Shown: piece after piece, positions 1 to 17,596 of the stretch
Position numbering within the stretch: position 1 is the first letter of the stretch
Layout: each line of letters begins with the position of its first letter
Virus record (IMG/VR): IMGVR_UViG_3300021399_000005
Location: 32,001 to 96,000 of that record
Reading direction: 5' to 3' (one strand)
Length of the DNA: 64,000 bases
Origin: a virus
Lineage: Duplodnaviria > Caudoviricetes
The notes under the pieces: model-generated
The model's input: the letters and a program-made list of their open reading frames with translations, nothing else
Databases searched by the model: none
Told to the model about the DNA's origin: nothing
Program-made: the position numbers and the translations under genes

Positions 1-1
1 A

Positions 2-580
2 AATTCTGCTACTTCTGTGGAATGAGATAGTGAGAATAAACGATATATAATAACTTCTCCAGTTGGAACTTCAAGTTGAGGATATGGATTTAAAATAAAA
101 GGTGATGTTGAAGACAATAGAAAAATTATTCCTTGAGGAAAAACAAGTATTTTTACTTTTGAGGTATATTCTCCAATTGCCACTATTGGGGCTACTGACT
201 ATAATAATTATGCAATAGATAATTCTCAAACTGGTGGAAATGATAATGATGGAGCAAGAGGAACTGCTAACTTTGATATTCCTGCTAATATTTGAACTTT
301 ATGCACTTTAAGTTTAACCAATAATAATTCAACAAAAAATCCTAATCAAGTTGCTCTTTATGATTGTTCTACTTTTGGACTTAGAACGAATGGAGTGTCA
401 GAACCTTTGGTATGATATGTACGCAATCCACAATGATATTTGGTAGAAACAGAGAAATTTCAAGTGGAGCAAAATGGTGTTTTTATAACAAACTTTATTA
501 AAGAAGATGATTTAAAAGATTATGTTTCTTTTAGAGATAATGAAAAAGCTGCTTGAGCAAATAATTTTATAGAAAAATAA
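2..580 (+). CDS. Tail-associated protein, 5'-partial; TGA read as Trp
   Basis: Frame 2 open to TAA 578-580 if ~7 TGA are Trp (first at 23-25); ends NFIEK like the 2593-5118 product. Confidence 0.75.
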
Positions 581-597
581 AGGAGGTCGGTGCGAAG

Positions 598-2532
598 ATG
601 GCACAACTTAGGGATTCTATTATAACTGGTGACCTTCGAGTTACCGGCACGATATATGGAAATGTACCACTTAATGATTTAACTGATGCTGATGATTTAA
701 AAGCTATTGAGGGATTATCGGGAACATCTGGCTGATTAAAAAAGACAGCTGCAAATACTTGGGCTTTGGGAACACTTGCTGCTTCTGACATACCAAATAT
801 TGATGTAGGCAAAATAACAAGTGGTACTTTACCAATAGCTAGAGGTGGTACTGGTTTAACTGCTAGCCCAAGTATGTTAACAAACCTAGGAAGTACAACT
901 GCCGAAAATGTATTGCAAGCATCACCTAGACCTGGTATCACTGGGACTCTTGGTGCCGCAAATGGAGGTACGGGGAAGACAACATTAAAAGATTCTGCTA
1001 ATGCATTAATTAACGCATTAGATACTGGAAGTAGTAATTTAACTTCAAATGACTATGTTATCACTCAATATGTTGGCGGTGGAACGGCTACAACAACCTA
1101 TCATCGCAGACCTGCTAGCGCATTAAGGGTAGGTGGATTGCTTACTGCAAGAAAATTAACAATTGGTTCTACTGGGAAAAATTTTGATGGTACTGCTGAT
1201 GTTAGTTGAACACTTGCAGAAATAGGTGCTGCAGCGAGTAATCATAATCATGATTCTACTTATGTTAATGTATCTGGCGACACTATGACAGGAGCGTTAA
1301 ATTTTGCAAATGGTACATATAATAACATCGGTGATGATGTTCAAATTGGAGATGTTAATAAAGCTGGTAGATTAGGTATAAAAGGTCTTAATGGTGCAAC
1401 TGGAATTGAATTTGTTCCATATTCTGGTTCAACATCACAAAGTTTTACAATTGATGGAAATAACATGGCAACATTAACTGGAGATATGACAATTACTGGA
1501 GATCGTATTAGATTTGGGAACGGCACTGCTGCATACTTAATTGCTTCTACTCCAGGTCGCACAGACAACGTTTTACTTGTTGGCGGAGGTAAAAAAGCAG
1601 CTGGAGATGTTAATGGTACTGCAATTAGACTTGGTGCAGGAGGTTTAACTCTTATCGGTGGTGGAGAGTATGCAAATAATAGATATAATGTTGCAGACTT
1701 AAATGACGGAACTGAACAACTGTATCTTGGTTCTGATACAAATGTTTATATAGAAACAAATGCACAAACAATAGAAAGTAGGAAAACGTTTACCTTTGAT
1801 TCAAATGGCATCTTAACCGTTCCAAATGGGGTTTCTTCTCCGGCAATTGAGTTAAGTGGTATGTCAACGTCTGCAAACAGTGGTGGGTATATTGATTTTC
1901 ATTGAAATAACAGTTCAGATGATTTTACGAGTAGAATTATTGAAAACGCTAATCACTCACTTCAATTTAGAACAAATCAAATGCAGCTATATGGAACAGG
2001 TTCTTTTTTAATTGCGAATTCAGCAATTAATGCTTCTCTTGCAAATAATAATGTTTCATCTGTTCAATATCCAGCCTTTTATATTACAGATAACGCTGCA
2101 CGAGTTATAACCAGATTAGAAAGTATTATTTGACCGAATGGAGATATAGGTTCTCAATGATATATACGTAATTATAATACTTCTGGCACTTCTGTTGCGC
2201 AAAAGGGTATTAAAATGGTAATGAATAAGTCAGGCACTTTAACTTGAACTGTTGATGAAGCAGAAAATTTTAGAACTGCAATAGGATCGCCAGAAAAATC
2301 TGTATTGCAATCAAATGCAACCGCAAATAAGTGAAGAAAAGTTACACTTGGCTCTCAATATTTTGACAACATTAATGGTACCGTTACAGAACAAACAGGT
2401 CAACTTTATATAAATTCTCAATTAGAATTTAATACTTCTGCTGGAACTTTAAAAGCAACTGAATATTCGGTAAATGGCAACGCAACTCTCCAATATAATT
2501 CAACTACAGAGTCATTAGATTTTGTTTTCTAG
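598..2532 (+). CDS. Tail fibre protein (644 aa, code 4)
   Basis: AGGAGGT SD; joins track ORFs 766-1209 and 1285-1905 through 7 in-frame TGA; GTLPIARGGTG repeats, GYIDFH motif, C-terminal LQYNSTTESLDFVF. Confidence 0.85.
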
Positions 2533-2569
2533 GAAAGATTTGTTCTTTCCTAGAAATTTATGTTATAAT
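2526..2569 (+). promoter_or_regulatory. 13-bp inverted repeat followed by extended -10 (TGTTATAAT)
   Basis: TTTCTAGGAAAGA 2526-2538 / TCTTTCCTAGAAA 2544-2556; TGTTATAAT 2561-2569. Confidence 0.45.
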
Positions 2570-2592
2570 TTAAGAAAAGGAGGGTTGCTATT

Positions 2593-15709: not shown

Positions 15710-15730
15710 TTCTTCCTCTTTTTTCTTTTT
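15698..15730 (+). terminator. Intrinsic terminator
   Basis: GAGGAAGA/TCTTCCTC stem followed by T-run. Confidence 0.7.
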
Positions 15731-15749
15731 TGAAAGGAGATTAGATATT

Positions 15750-16385
15750 ATGGCAACAACAAAAAAGAATTATAATAGACTTTCTGATGCACAAATTGCA
15801 GAAGAGATTTTAAATGGTGGTCTTTCTGATATTGAAGAAAGAAAAAAGATTTTAGGAAACAGATATGAAGCTATTCAATATTTAGTAACAAATAAATTAA
15901 TGACAGAAAAGAAAATAACTTCTCCAAAGAAAGGAGAAGATACTATTGTAAAAGATATTGCAAATGGAAAATGGGGAACTTCTGAAACAGACATTAAAAA
16001 AAGATTAAATATGTTAGGTTATGCAAACGATAAAGAAATTTTGAAAAAAGCTGATACAATTCGACAAAAGAAATATAAAGAATTTGCCGAACAGTTTAAT
16101 TCTAAAAAAATATCTTATGTTCAACTGTTAGAAATGTTAGATAAAGAAAAAATTAATTATTCTAAAATTCAACCATATGTGCGCGAACGTTCTGGAGATA
16201 TTCAAGTTGGCGATTATGTGCAGATTAAGCAAGGCGCCACAGATTTAAAAACAGGAAAAGCAATTCCAAATTATGTTATTCAATCTCAATATTTAGTGAA
16301 AAAAACCAATAGAAAAACTGTAACTATTGGAGATAAATTTAAAGAAATGGGAGTTATAGACAAAAACTTTATAATTAAACAATAG
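15750..16385 (+). CDS. Cell-wall-binding protein with CW_7-like repeats
   Basis: IAEEILNGG..LGNRYEAIQ and IVKDIANGKWG..RL..LGY; no TGA. Confidence 0.65.
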   Translation: MATTKKNYNRLSDAQIAEEILNGGLSDIEERKKILGNRYEAIQYLVTNKLMTEKKITSPKKGEDTIVKDIANGKWGTSETDIKKRLNMLGYANDKEILKKADTIRQKKYKEFAEQFNSKKISYVQLLEMLDKEKINYSKIQPYVRERSGDIQVGDYVQIKQGATDLKTGKAIPNYVIQSQYLVKKTNRKTVTIGDKFKEMGVIDKNFIIKQ

Positions 16386-16396
16386 GGGGAATTAAA

Positions 16397-17596
16397 ATGG
16401 CAATAACATTTACATACGACAACGAGGTATATACAGTTCCCAATGACTCTGCGCTATCAGAAAATGGACAAATAAAAGTTCAAATTGGTTCTCATTATAA
16501 TCCAGATTCTTCTCGTTTAAAAATTGCTGTTCAATTTATTCATAATAATCCAAGATACCCTGGAACATACTATTGTCCAGAAGGTGGCGATGGAGTTGGA
16601 TACGGAACTGGGGGGCCAAATGATGGAAATTCTCATGCGGTTAGATTTAGATGAACTCTTACTCAAAATAATGCTATGTACCGTCAAGGAACAGTAAACT
16701 CAATAAATGTTTCACCAAACGCCCCTCAAACAATAATTCTTTTTAATCAAGTATTAAGTTGAGAATCTTTAAAAGAAGTGTTTCGTTTTAATTTTAAATG
16801 AGATGACAGTGTTATATATAAAGGATACTATGGAATTTACCAAGGAATTTATTATTGGGTAGATTTAAATTTTAATTTAAACTTATCTTTTGATTTATCT
16901 TCTGCTACTAATTCTTTTTATAGATTACAATACATCTCTAACTTAGACTCACCTTTTCGTTTAAAAGATTGACCAGAGAATAAAATTAATAATAAATATC
17001 CTAATGATACGAATTATAAGGTTTTAGCTGCGCCTGTATTAGAAGAAGGAAATAATATCGTTATTTCTTTTACTCACCAAGACTGGAAATATGAAAAAAC
17101 ATATCTCTGTAAATACGAGATTCCTCCCGTTTTCTTGTATTGAGAATCTGATACTTCAATGGATGGAAAAGATTTGGACGGAAATAAAAAAAGTGGAAAA
17201 GTTTGATACCCAAACGAAATTATTACTTCAAATTTTTTAGGAGGAACAATTAGCTTAAAAGCAATTTGACTTACATCTAGCACCAATCTTTCTCCTGTTG
17301 TAATAGATTTTTCAGATGCTACTCAAAGAGTACTAGAAAATTTTTCTGATGTTTCTCAATATGATGGTTGACTGGGGTCAAACGGCATAATATATCCTTT
17401 TGAAGGAAAAGATAAATTTTCTACCAATTTTACTTTTGTTTTAACTATAAATGAAGATGAGCATAGTCTTATTTGAGTAAAGACAGAAGATGGATGAAAG
17501 AAAGGTTTTCTTTGAGTAAAAACTTCTGATAGTGAATGAGAAAAGAGCCGTTCTGTTTTTGTAAAAACAGAAAATTCTTCTTGGCAATCTTCTTAA
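16397..17596 (+). CDS. Virion accessory protein (399 aa, ~12 TGA)
   Basis: Single frame to TAA 17594-17596; terminal repeats *VKTEDG*KKG / *VKTSDSE*. Confidence 0.75.

What the first reader, a model, noticed from the sequence alone, without database searches (positions are those of the whole stretch)
1..17596. Two genetic codes in one genome: TGA=Trp in structural and lysis genes only
Seen: fragmentary ORFs fuse into tightly packed genes with SD sites and TAA/TAG ends when TGA is read through; TGA lies at motif Trp positions (QC*D, GLVQ*TP, *HH, ATK*TP, V*RR) and even in tandem (4000-4005). About 44 kb of replication/early genes are intact in code 11 with TGG. Known: stage-specific stop recoding has been reported in gut phages. 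Inference: premature late-gene expression is blocked until the tRNA is available.
Basis: partly seen in the sequence, partly recalled or inferred. Interest (0 to 1): 0.85.

Follow-up and report, generated by a model that had tools for sequence, protein, structure and literature searches.

The report
Phage late genes read TGA as tryptophan
This complete 167-kb ruminant-gut phage writes its tail and cell-wall-degrading (lysin) genes with the stop codon TGA meaning tryptophan and keeps its replication genes in the standard code, a habit already published for gut phages, and the tRNA that reads TGA lies in the window but is hidden by a self-splicing intron.

Summary
On the + strand of window 1-17,596, fragmentary ORFs fuse into packed genes when TGA is read through. 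Coding density rises from about 0.5 to 0.95-0.98. All late genes end in TAA or TAG.

Blind alignments (TGA written as X) put tryptophan in the TGA columns of three proteins. The Trp budget matches between gene sets only if TGA is Trp: TGA+TGG is 1.53% of late codons and 1.56% of early codons.

"Only" is too strong. Three minus-strand genes in the window are also recoded: a RuvC-like resolvase, an unknown gene, and a GIY-YIG intron endonuclease. The holin and a CW_7 protein have no TGA. Several early genes seem to use TGA as their stop.

The decoder is in the window at 18,252-18,537. It is a tRNA(UCA) with Trp-type identity elements, split by a 211-nt group I intron. It lies in a TGA-free unit that RNA contigs from two studies cover. 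I found no RF1, RF2 or TrpRS.

The architecture matches the TGA-recoded "Agate"-type Firmicutes phages of Borges et al. This scan has already found intron-split suppressor tRNAs in several other recoded phages. The timing role is inferred. Verdict: new member of a known kind.

The parts
2..580 (+). 3' end of an 822-aa late gene that starts before the window (20 in-frame TGA and 3 TGG in the whole gene)
598..2532 (+). Tail fibre protein, 644 aa, 7 TGA and 1 TGG
   Evidence: phrog_26292, phrog_21722
2593..5118 (+). Tail or virion protein with a Laminin_G_3 domain, 841 aa, 18 TGA and 4 TGG. Includes the tandem TGA TGA at 4000-4005. Preceded by the motif TTTATGTTATAAT at 2557-2569.
5288..6610 (+). 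Tail fibre or baseplate protein with a Gp10_C domain, 5 TGA and 0 TGG
6663..11514 (+). Seven small tail or tail-fibre genes: 6663-7064, 7275-7913, 8003-8401, 8404-8931, 8966-9829, 9833-10687 and 10669-11514. They carry 1, 1, 0, 3, 6, 6 and 2 TGA.
11535..11783 (+). Holin (Phage_holin_1), 82 aa, no TGA and 1 TGG. It is not recoded.
11970..14258 (+). Tail lysozyme protein (Phage_lysozyme2), about 750-762 aa, 18 TGA and 2 TGG
14249..15709 (+). Endolysin: an N-terminal domain like those of streptococcal phage lysins, an SH3_5 domain and a GH25 muramidase. 486 aa, 7 TGA and 7 TGG.
15750..16385 (+). Protein with a CW_7 cell-wall-binding repeat, 211 aa, no TGA
16397..17596 (+). Unknown late protein, 399 aa, 12 TGA and 3 TGG. 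It is the last recoded gene of the block.
17592..17611 (+). Promoter-like 20-mer of the extended -10 type (CTTAAATTTTTTGTTATAAT). It matches 19 of 20 bases of the sequence just before the first late gene (genome 138,280-138,299).
   Evidence: The shorter 13-mer core is not enriched over chance.
17638..18220 (+). Two TGA-free genes upstream of the tRNA: a 55-aa ORF (17638-17805) and a 123-aa Hsp20-like protein (17849-18220)
   Evidence: RNA contigs of three libraries start at 17633-17638.
18252..18285 (+). 5' exon of tRNA(UCA), ending at U34
18286..18496 (+). Group I intron of 211 nt with no ORF, inserted between anticodon positions 34 and 35. Its last base is G.
   Evidence: Rfam Intron_gpI, 40 bits, E 4.7e-9, whole model, below the gathering score of 50
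18497..18537 (+). 3' exon of tRNA(UCA), with an encoded CCA end
18582..18611 (.). Two-way intrinsic terminator (12-bp stem) where the + and - blocks meet
18598..19197 (-). Unknown protein on the early strand with 2 in-frame TGA
19250..19795 (-). RuvC-like Holliday junction resolvase with 3 in-frame TGA
23004..23768 (-). GIY-YIG/NUMOD1 homing endonuclease lying between nrdD exons, 3 TGA and 0 TGG
26338..30177 (-). DNA polymerase III alpha (YorL-like), 1279 aa, 16 TGG and no internal TGA. It ends in TGA at 26338-26340, and a TAA follows three codons later. It is an example of an early gene in the standard code.

Best explanation
The window comes from a complete, circularly assembled 167-kb tailed phage of a Gram-positive (Bacillota) host from ruminant gut.

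Its roughly 78-kb + strand block of packaging, head, tail and lysin genes uses TGA as an ordinary tryptophan codon. The minus-strand replication and nucleotide-metabolism block uses TGG for Trp, has almost no in-frame TGA, and in several genes seems to use TGA as the stop. The host is therefore most likely a standard-code bacterium, and the phage supplies the decoder itself.

The decoder is a tRNA-Trp-like opal suppressor, tRNA(UCA), at window 18,252-18,537. Its gene is interrupted between U34 and C35 by a 211-nt group I intron that must be spliced out. Once spliced and charged, presumably by the host TrpRS, the tRNA competes with host RF2 and lets ribosomes read through the 1-21 TGA codons per late gene.

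Shown here: the recoding, its meaning as Trp, its distribution over genes, the tRNA gene and the intron. RNA libraries of two studies also hold contigs over the tRNA unit.

Inferred: splicing, charging with Trp, the host's code, and the idea that the arrangement keeps tail proteins, the endolysin and selfish endonucleases from being made before late infection.
For: Recoding:
- ORFs fuse and coding density rises only when TGA is read through.
- The late set has 245 TGA and 118 TGG; the early set has 55 and 244 (p = 3e-38). All late genes end in TAA or TAG.

TGA means Trp:
- In the 841-aa protein, 944 of the aligned residues in TGA columns are W, against a background of 2.5% W.
- NCBI-sourced homologues also have W there.
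- In the tail lysozyme, W is 144 of 146, 120 and 81 at the best-covered columns.
- In the endolysin, 24 of 34 aligned TGA positions are W in homologues from two phage contigs confirmed to use code 11, and position 56 is W in 108 of 111.
- TGA+TGG is 1.53% of late codons and 1.56% of early codons, whereas TGG alone is 0.50% and 1.27%.
- TGA and TGG interchange five times against a relative (the pairwise gene identities are 35-100%), while 68 TGA are conserved.
- In-frame TGA has background +4 context and an even position along genes, so it behaves as a plain sense codon.

Decoder:
- ARAGORN with introns allowed finds a tRNA(tca). After the 211 nt are removed it is a clean 75-nt cloverleaf with A1-U72, G73, G5-C68, A9 and an encoded CCA.
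- The intron matches Rfam Intron_gpI over the whole model, including the conserved core.
- The tRNA and intron are 99% identical in a relative.

Expression:
- RNA-library contigs from two studies start at 17633-17638 and run into the tRNA and intron. There is none past 18522, while the DNA run is flat at about 112x.

Host in the standard code:
- Early genes lack sense TGA, and about six have their only TGA within the last 13 codons or fewer.
- The endolysin is a GH25 muramidase with SH3_5, so the host has a cell wall.
- Relatives are phages of Enterococcus, Bacillus and Geobacillus.
- Endolysin homologues lie mainly in Erysipelotrichaceae and Clostridia genomes.

Precedent: Borges et al. describe the same architecture.
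Against: - There are no peptide data, so Trp at TGA rests on alignments and composition.
- The host is unknown, so its genetic code is inferred.
- No spliced tRNA junction was seen in the RNA contigs. One contig bridges the unspliced 5' exon-intron junction. Contigs are poor at showing mature tRNAs.
- The Rfam intron score is below the gathering cut-off (40 against 50 bits). By hand I found only a weak 3-4 bp P1 pairing at the inferred 5' splice site.
- No RF1, TrpRS or recognisable anti-RF2 factor is encoded, so how suppression becomes efficient enough for 18-21 TGA in one gene is open.
- The holin has no TGA, which weakens a simple "recoding times lysis" reading.
- The 13-mer promoter core is not enriched over chance: 7 observed against 4.1 +/- 1.8 expected.
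Confidence: 0.85

Rival explanations
1. The recoding and the suppressor tRNA are real, but they have no timing function. After the lineage acquired a tRNA(UCA), TGG-to-TGA changes drifted in under AT pressure wherever the tRNA is present during translation, that is, in late genes and late-expressed selfish genes. Early genes stayed clean only because they are translated before the tRNA accumulates.
For: - The genome is 29-36% G+C, which favours TGA over TGG.
- The TGA share rises along the late block. It is about 24% of Trp codons in the packaging and head genes, about 60-74% in the middle, and about 82% in the tail-fibre and lysin part (counts).
- TGA context and position look neutral.
- The holin, the usual lysis timer, is not recoded.
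- The tRNA unit shares a promoter-like 20-mer with the start of the late operon, so the tRNA would come up with late mRNAs and not gate them.
Against: - Borges et al. report statistically preferential recoding of particular lysis and tail families and of an intron endonuclease in Agate phages. The same gene classes are the most recoded here.
- Recoding of a homing endonuclease and a resolvase on the early strand looks like selection for late-only translation.
- Neither view was tested here.
Confidence: 0.3
2. The host itself uses code 4 (TGA = Trp), so the whole phage is read in a single code. The contrast between early and late genes would then be only codon-usage bias.
For: - No RF1, RF2 or TrpRS genes are needed or found.
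- All late genes, and most early genes, end in TAA or TAG.
- Relatives of Erysipelotrichales include code-4 Mollicutes (my own knowledge).
Against: - A code-4 host would already have a tRNA-Trp(UCA), yet the phage keeps its own.
- Long early genes have none or almost none. Most of the longest have 0 TGA, and the polymerase has 16 TGG and only a terminal TGA. That is hard to explain in a 31% G+C genome if TGA were freely readable.
- The single TGAs in about six early genes all lie within the last 13 codons or fewer, as stops with a back-up stop would.
- The GH25 muramidase, SH3_5 and CW_7 domains imply a walled host, while known free-living code-4 bacteria are wall-less (my own knowledge).
- Borges et al. 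predict standard-code Firmicutes hosts for such phages.
Confidence: 0.07
3. The TGA codons are not decoded as Trp. They would be breaks in decaying or misassembled genes, or sites of selenocysteine, glycine (code 25) or cysteine insertion.
For: ARAGORN labels the tRNA "SeC(tca)", but it does so from the anticodon alone.
Against: - There are 245 in-frame TGA with no frame loss and no TAA or TAG inside the genes, and they are conserved in a relative (68 of the aligned TGA).
- The columns are W, not G, C or U.
- The tRNA has a 7-bp acceptor stem, a 5-bp T stem and a 4-nt variable loop. It lacks the long extra arm of tRNA-Sec.
- The DNA run covers the region evenly at about 112x.
Confidence: 0.01

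Closest known systems
TGA-recoded "Agate" phages, and gut phages with recoded stop codons in general (Borges et al., bioRxiv 10.1101/2021.08.26.457843)
   Same: - A large phage of Firmicutes from cattle, pig or other animal gut.
- TGA means Trp in structural and lysis genes, and the replication machinery is in the standard code.
- A group I intron homing endonuclease inside an early gene is recoded.
- Tail genes next to the lysis cassette are the most heavily recoded.
- TGA is rare as a stop codon.
- A suppressor tRNA is expected.
   Different: - Clade membership was not tested, because no Agate terminase sequences were at hand.
- This genome is 167 kb, against the roughly 127-kb lineage they analysed.
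- They detected TGA suppressor tRNAs in only 35% of code-4 phages. Here the tRNA exists but is split by a group I intron, so standard tRNA finders miss it.
The "code-change operon" of Jade phages (TrpRS, RF1 and a TGA suppressor tRNA beside the lysis cassette; Borges et al., Fig. S6 legend)
   Same: A unit that holds the suppressor tRNA, is itself written in the standard code, and sits directly beside the lysis cassette (here).
   Different: There is no TrpRS and no RF1 anywhere in this genome. The companion genes here are a 55-aa ORF and an Hsp20-like protein.
crAss-like phages with UGA or UAG read-through in late genes (Yutin et al. 2021, PMC7886860; Zeta group, PMC12386605)
   Same: Late-gene-biased stop-codon reassignment with phage suppressor tRNAs, and many self-splicing introns and homing endonucleases.
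   Different: A different phage lineage and host phylum (Bacteroidota against Bacillota). This phage's terminase and DNA polymerase are nearest to Enterococcus EF1/H1-like, Geobacillus E3 and SPbeta-like phages.
Group I introns in bacterial tRNA anticodon loops (cyanobacterial and plastid tRNA-Leu(UAA), Azoarcus tRNA-Ile; my own knowledge)
   Same: A small ORF-less group I intron in the anticodon loop, with U before the 5' splice site, a terminal G, and conserved core sequences. The same phage also has a tRNA-Leu(UAA) with a 771-nt intron.
   Different: The host gene is an opal suppressor tRNA, so the intron sits inside the element that changes the genetic code. Splicing was not shown here.
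Code 4 of Mycoplasma and Spiroplasma (tRNA-Trp UCA; my own knowledge)
   Same: The same codon meaning and the same anticodon solution.
   Different: There it holds genome-wide and RF2 has been lost. Here it applies to a subset of genes in one genome, and TGA still seems to be used as a stop in some early genes.

Membership tests
Stop-codon-recoded phage, code 4 in late genes (Borges et al. type) | Reading in-frame TGA through restores full-length, packed structural and lysis genes | tested here: met
Stop-codon-recoded phage, code 4 in late genes (Borges et al. type) | TGA columns align with tryptophan in homologues | tested here: met
   Trp budget
Stop-codon-recoded phage, code 4 in late genes (Borges et al. 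type) | DNA replication genes can be read in the standard code | tested here: met
   Exceptions are the RuvC-like gene, an unknown gene and the GIY-YIG endonuclease.
Stop-codon-recoded phage, code 4 in late genes (Borges et al. type) | The phage encodes a suppressor tRNA with anticodon UCA | tested here: met
   It is found only when introns are allowed.
Stop-codon-recoded phage, code 4 in late genes (Borges et al. type) | The host uses the standard code | tested here: inconclusive
   The evidence is indirect: TGA at the ends of early genes, a muramidase endolysin, and Bacillota relatives. The host was not identified.
Agate clade in the strict sense | Placement within the Agate clade on a large-terminase tree | not tested
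   No Agate sequences were available. The nearest records for the terminase are an unannotated gut "Bacteriophage sp." (55%) and Enterococcus phages (48%).
Group I intron | Match to the conserved catalytic core (covariance model) | tested here: inconclusive
   Rfam RF00028 gives 40 bits, E 4.7e-9 on 311 nt, over model positions 1-253, but below the gathering score of 50. It was missed in the 2-kb scan.
Group I intron | U before the 5' splice site and G as the last intron base, giving an intact product | tested here: met
   Exon 1 ends in ...CTT and the intron ends in ...AAG. The joined exons form a clean cloverleaf.
Group I intron | Self-splicing activity, or a spliced product in RNA | tested here: inconclusive
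   No spliced joint appears in the RNA contigs, and an unspliced junction contig is present. Contigs cannot exclude a mature tRNA.
Bacterial tRNA-Trp identity | G73 discriminator, A1-U72, G5-C68 and A9 (identity set recalled from the literature on E. coli and B. subtilis TrpRS) | tested here: met
   Read directly from the spliced sequence. Charging itself cannot be tested with these tools.
Selenocysteine decoding | tRNA-Sec geometry (8/5 or 9/4 acceptor/T stems and a long variable arm), with U or C in the aligned columns | tested here: not met
   The tRNA has 7/5 stems and a 4-nt variable loop. The columns are W.
Code 25 (TGA = Gly) | TGA columns align with glycine | tested here: not met
   G accounts for 29 residues against 944 W in the 841-aa protein.

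The most novel reading that the evidence does not exclude
The group I intron inside the anticodon of the only UGA-reading tRNA is not just a tolerated mobile element. It would act as a second gate on the code switch: late proteins, the endolysin and the recoded homing endonucleases could be translated only after the precursor is both transcribed (from a late-type promoter) and spliced. Splicing rate or a splicing cofactor would then set when the infected cell changes its genetic code.

A weaker corollary is that intron-split genes account for many of the roughly 65% of code-4 phages in which no suppressor tRNA has been detected.
Probability: 0.1. Interest if true: 0.7.

Novelty: new member of a known kind. 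Interest (0 to 1): 0.3.

Why it matters
Gene finders that use a single code will break about half of this genome's late genes. They will also report that it has no suppressor tRNA. This window shows that both the recoding and its decoder are present and can be recovered.

It adds a complete, well-resolved example to the published class of phages that switch the meaning of TGA during infection. It comes with gene-level detail that bears on the timing hypothesis: the holin is not recoded, while the endolysin, tail fibres, a resolvase and one of two intron endonucleases are.

The intron-split tRNA is a practical explanation for suppressor tRNAs that seem to be missing in surveys. It also gives a testable point of control. 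None of this changes the known picture in kind.

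Tried and rejected
- Standard ARAGORN on the window and on the genome found no tRNA(UCA). A 2-kb Rfam scan found neither a tRNA nor an intron. Only ARAGORN with introns allowed, and a narrow Rfam scan, found them.
- I looked for more distant relatives that carry the tRNA, to test covariation. Exact-pattern scans of IMG/VR gave only two near-identical contigs.
- A pattern for an intron-less anticodon arm gave two chance hits that are not tRNAs.
- The contig of an 81%-identical endolysin had no DNA on hand. The 51-60% endolysin homologues belong to unrelated standard-code phages or prophages.
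- I compared the spliced tRNA with five Erysipelotrichaceae, Solobacterium and Holdemanella genomes to find a parental tRNA-Trp. Only T-arm matches to other tRNAs came back.
- I looked for a spliced joint in the RNA contigs and found none. This is no evidence against splicing.
- I tested enrichment of the extended -10 13-mer. It is not above chance. Only the 20-mer shared by the late-operon start and the tRNA unit, and its position just before recoded genes, remain as a lead.
- I checked the base after TGA for a leaky-termination context and found no bias.
- The weak tRNA-Trp(CCA) candidate outside the window has a badly paired acceptor stem and fails Rfam's gathering cut-off. I did not pursue it as a decoder.

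Full report
**What the window is.** The window is bases 32,001-96,000 of a single 166,804-bp contig. The first and last 127 bases of the contig are identical, and the collection classes it as having direct terminal repeats and being 100% complete. G+C is 29-36%. GC skew flips sign near window 18,000, where a + strand block meets a minus-strand block.

**Checking the observation.** In code 11 the + strand of 1-17,596 holds only short ORFs. In code 4 they fuse into 15 contiguous genes of up to 841 aa.
- Over the whole genome, coding density of the late block per 8 kb goes from 0.47-0.82 in code 11 to 0.95-0.99 in code 4. Reading TAG through instead gives only 0.58-0.84. The early block does not change.
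- The recoded block runs from about genome 138,300, through the origin, to 49,600. That is roughly 78 kb, and the window holds its 3' end.
- Among genes of at least 100 aa, the late set has 245 in-frame TGA and 118 TGG. The early set has 55 and 244 (Fisher p = 3e-38). All 46 late genes end in TAA or TAG.
- The tandem TGA at 4000-4005 is in frame. Most gene starts have Shine-Dalgarno sites.

**What TGA means.** I translated TGA as X and looked at what homologues have in those columns.
- 841-aa Laminin_G_3 tail protein: 944 residues across the 18 TGA columns are W, and the next most common is F with 69. The homologues are 2.5% W overall. NCBI-sourced homologues show the same.
- Tail lysozyme: the GLVQ*TP column is W in 144 of 146.
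- Endolysin: position 56 is W in 108 of 111. In the 59-60%-identical homologues from two phage contigs that translate correctly in table 11, 24 of 34 aligned TGA positions are W.
- Composition gives an independent argument. TGA+TGG makes up 1.53% of late codons and 1.56% of early codons. TGG alone would be 0.50% against 1.27%.
- Against a relative from IMG/VR, 68 TGA are conserved and TGA and TGG interchange five times.
- In-frame TGA has the background next-base distribution and an even spread along genes, so it behaves as a plain sense codon and not as a context-dependent read-through site.
- Glycine, cysteine and selenocysteine are excluded by the columns and by the shape of the tRNA.

**Which genes are recoded.** In the window, tail fibres, Gp10_C proteins, the tail lysozyme, the endolysin (GH25 and SH3_5) and an unknown 399-aa protein are heavily recoded: 86 TGA against 22 TGG.
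- The holin (Phage_holin_1, 11535-11783), a CW_7 protein and one small gene have no TGA.
- The share of TGA among Trp codons rises along the block. It is about 24% in the packaging and head genes and about 82% in the tail-fibre and lysin part (counts).
- On the minus strand, three in-window genes carry internal TGA: an unknown gene (18598-19197), a RuvC-like resolvase (19250-19795), and a GIY-YIG/NUMOD1 homing endonuclease that lies between nrdD exons (23004-23768). The second GIY-YIG endonuclease in nrdD has none. So "only" is too strong.
- The large early genes have TGG and almost no sense TGA. About six early genes have their single TGA within the last 13 codons or fewer, followed by TAA or TAG. 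One example is the YorL-like DNA polymerase III alpha at codon 1280 of 1282. I read these as real TGA stops with back-up stops.

**The decoder.** Standard tRNA searches find nothing in the window, and they find 24 tRNAs, none with anticodon UCA, in an array outside it.
- With introns allowed, ARAGORN reports a tRNA(tca) at window 18,252-18,537.
- I applied the group I rule: U before the 5' splice site and G as the last intron base. This gives exon 1 at 18,252-18,285, an intron at 18,286-18,496 (211 nt) and exon 2 at 18,497-18,537.
- The joined exons form a 75-nt cloverleaf with anticodon loop CU-UCA-AC, A1-U72, G73, G5-C68, A9 and an encoded CCA. From my own knowledge, these are the bacterial tRNA-Trp identity elements.
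- The intron matches Rfam Intron_gpI over the whole model at 40 bits (E 4.7e-9 on 311 nt), which is below the gathering score of 50. By hand, P1 pairing at the splice site is only 3-4 bp.
- The tRNA and intron are 99% identical in the IMG/VR relative.
- No RF1 or RF2 domains and no class Ib synthetase (TrpRS) are encoded anywhere in the genome.

**Context and expression of the tRNA.** The tRNA follows two TGA-free genes, a 55-aa ORF and an Hsp20-like protein. After it comes a strong two-way terminator at 18,582-18,611.
- Just upstream, at 17,592-17,611, is a 20-mer that matches 19 of 20 bases of the sequence before the first late gene.
- Its 13-nt extended -10-like core, with one mismatch or none, also precedes the genes at genome 30,112 and 34,593 and a recoded HNH gene on the minus strand.
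- The 13-mer count itself is not above chance, so this is only a lead.
- The phage DNA occurs in bovine, goat and sheep gut runs.
- In two metatranscriptome libraries of the likely source sample, and one from another study, contigs begin at 17,633-17,638 and run through the Hsp20-like gene into the tRNA and intron. One contig bridges the unspliced 5' junction. None lies beyond 18,522, and the neighbouring late genes are barely covered. The DNA run is flat at about 112x.
- This pattern is not what DNA carry-over would give, so the unit is probably transcribed. Contigs cannot give true RNA ends or levels, and no spliced joint was seen.

**Host.** The nearest cultured relatives of the terminase and polymerase are Enterococcus, Geobacillus and SPbeta-like Bacillus phages, at 39-48% identity. 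Endolysin homologues lie in streptococcal and clostridial phages and in Erysipelotrichaceae, Solobacterium, Holdemanella and Clostridia genomes. A walled Bacillota host that uses the standard code is therefore likely, but not shown.

**Comparison with what is known.** Borges et al. (bioRxiv 10.1101/2021.08.26.457843) describe this architecture.
- Their TGA-recoded "Agate" phages infect Firmicutes in cattle, pig and other animal guts, with TGA in structural and lysis genes and not in the replication machinery.
- They report a preferentially recoded group I intron endonuclease inside an early gene, and heavily recoded tail genes next to the lysis cassette.
- They propose that recoding delays late and lytic proteins.
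- They found TGA suppressor tRNAs in only 35% of code-4 phages and suspected non-canonical tRNAs.
- Their Jade phages have a standard-code "code-change operon" next to the lysis cassette, with TrpRS and RF1 that are absent here.
- A 2026 survey mentions intronic sequences in tRNAs of alternatively coded jumbo phages.
- Notes from this scan report intron-split suppressor tRNAs in several other recoded phages, and first-stage notes on this genome list the same tRNA. I treated these as leads and re-derived the tRNA myself.

**Verdict.** The finding is a new member of a published kind. The timing role remains a hypothesis, and two facts complicate it. The holin is not recoded. The tRNA unit seems to share its promoter type with the late genes, so the tRNA may arrive with late mRNAs and not before them. 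The least ordinary element is the group I intron inside the suppressor's anticodon. It explains why standard tools miss the decoder and could in principle add a splicing step to the code switch, but nothing here shows that it does.

Noticed in passing
L002 6839-7143 (-), which is genome 102,839-103,143, outside the window: The phage encodes a tmRNA (Rfam RF00023, 64.7 bits, above the gathering score) next to its tRNA array. [quoted passage not shown]
   Followed up: no
L002 14146-15002 (-), which is genome 110,146-111,002: A tRNA-Leu(UAA) interrupted by a 771-nt intron at position 36, which holds a 170-aa ORF (genome 110,294-110,806). It is a second intron-split tRNA in the same phage.
   Followed up: no
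window 21870-26219 (-): The anaerobic ribonucleotide reductase gene nrdD is split into three coding pieces (25242-26219, 23949-24317, 21870-22883) by two insertions. Each insertion carries a GIY-YIG homing endonuclease. Only the downstream one (23004-23768) contains TGA codons (3 TGA, 0 TGG); the other (24453-25175) has none.
   Followed up: partly
window 11535-11783 (+): The holin (Phage_holin_1, E 2.6e-19) has no TGA and one TGG, unlike the endolysin and the tail lysozyme around it.
   Followed up: yes
window 17592-17611, L004 2280-2299 (genome 138,280-138,299), window 2557-2569: A shared promoter-like motif of the extended -10 type (TTTTTGTTATAAT and variants) lies 15-45 nt before the start codons of late genes, the tRNA unit and a recoded HNH gene. 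There is no clear -35 element. The short core is not enriched over chance.
   Followed up: partly
genome 105,961-106,032 (-), outside the window: ARAGORN calls a weak tRNA-Trp(CCA) candidate only at a lowered threshold. Its acceptor stem has several mismatches, and Rfam's tRNA model does not report it at gathering score.
   Followed up: partly
window 18383-18427: Short RNA and DNA contigs from the same samples match only this intron core segment and then run on into unlike sequence. They probably come from other group I introns in the community.
   Followed up: no
window 18227-18246: A GC-rich hairpin (GGCGCGC-ATAGTA-GCGCGC) lies directly between the Hsp20-like gene and the first base of the tRNA. 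It could be a processing site or an attenuator. The two bases that differ in the relative are in the loop.
   Followed up: no
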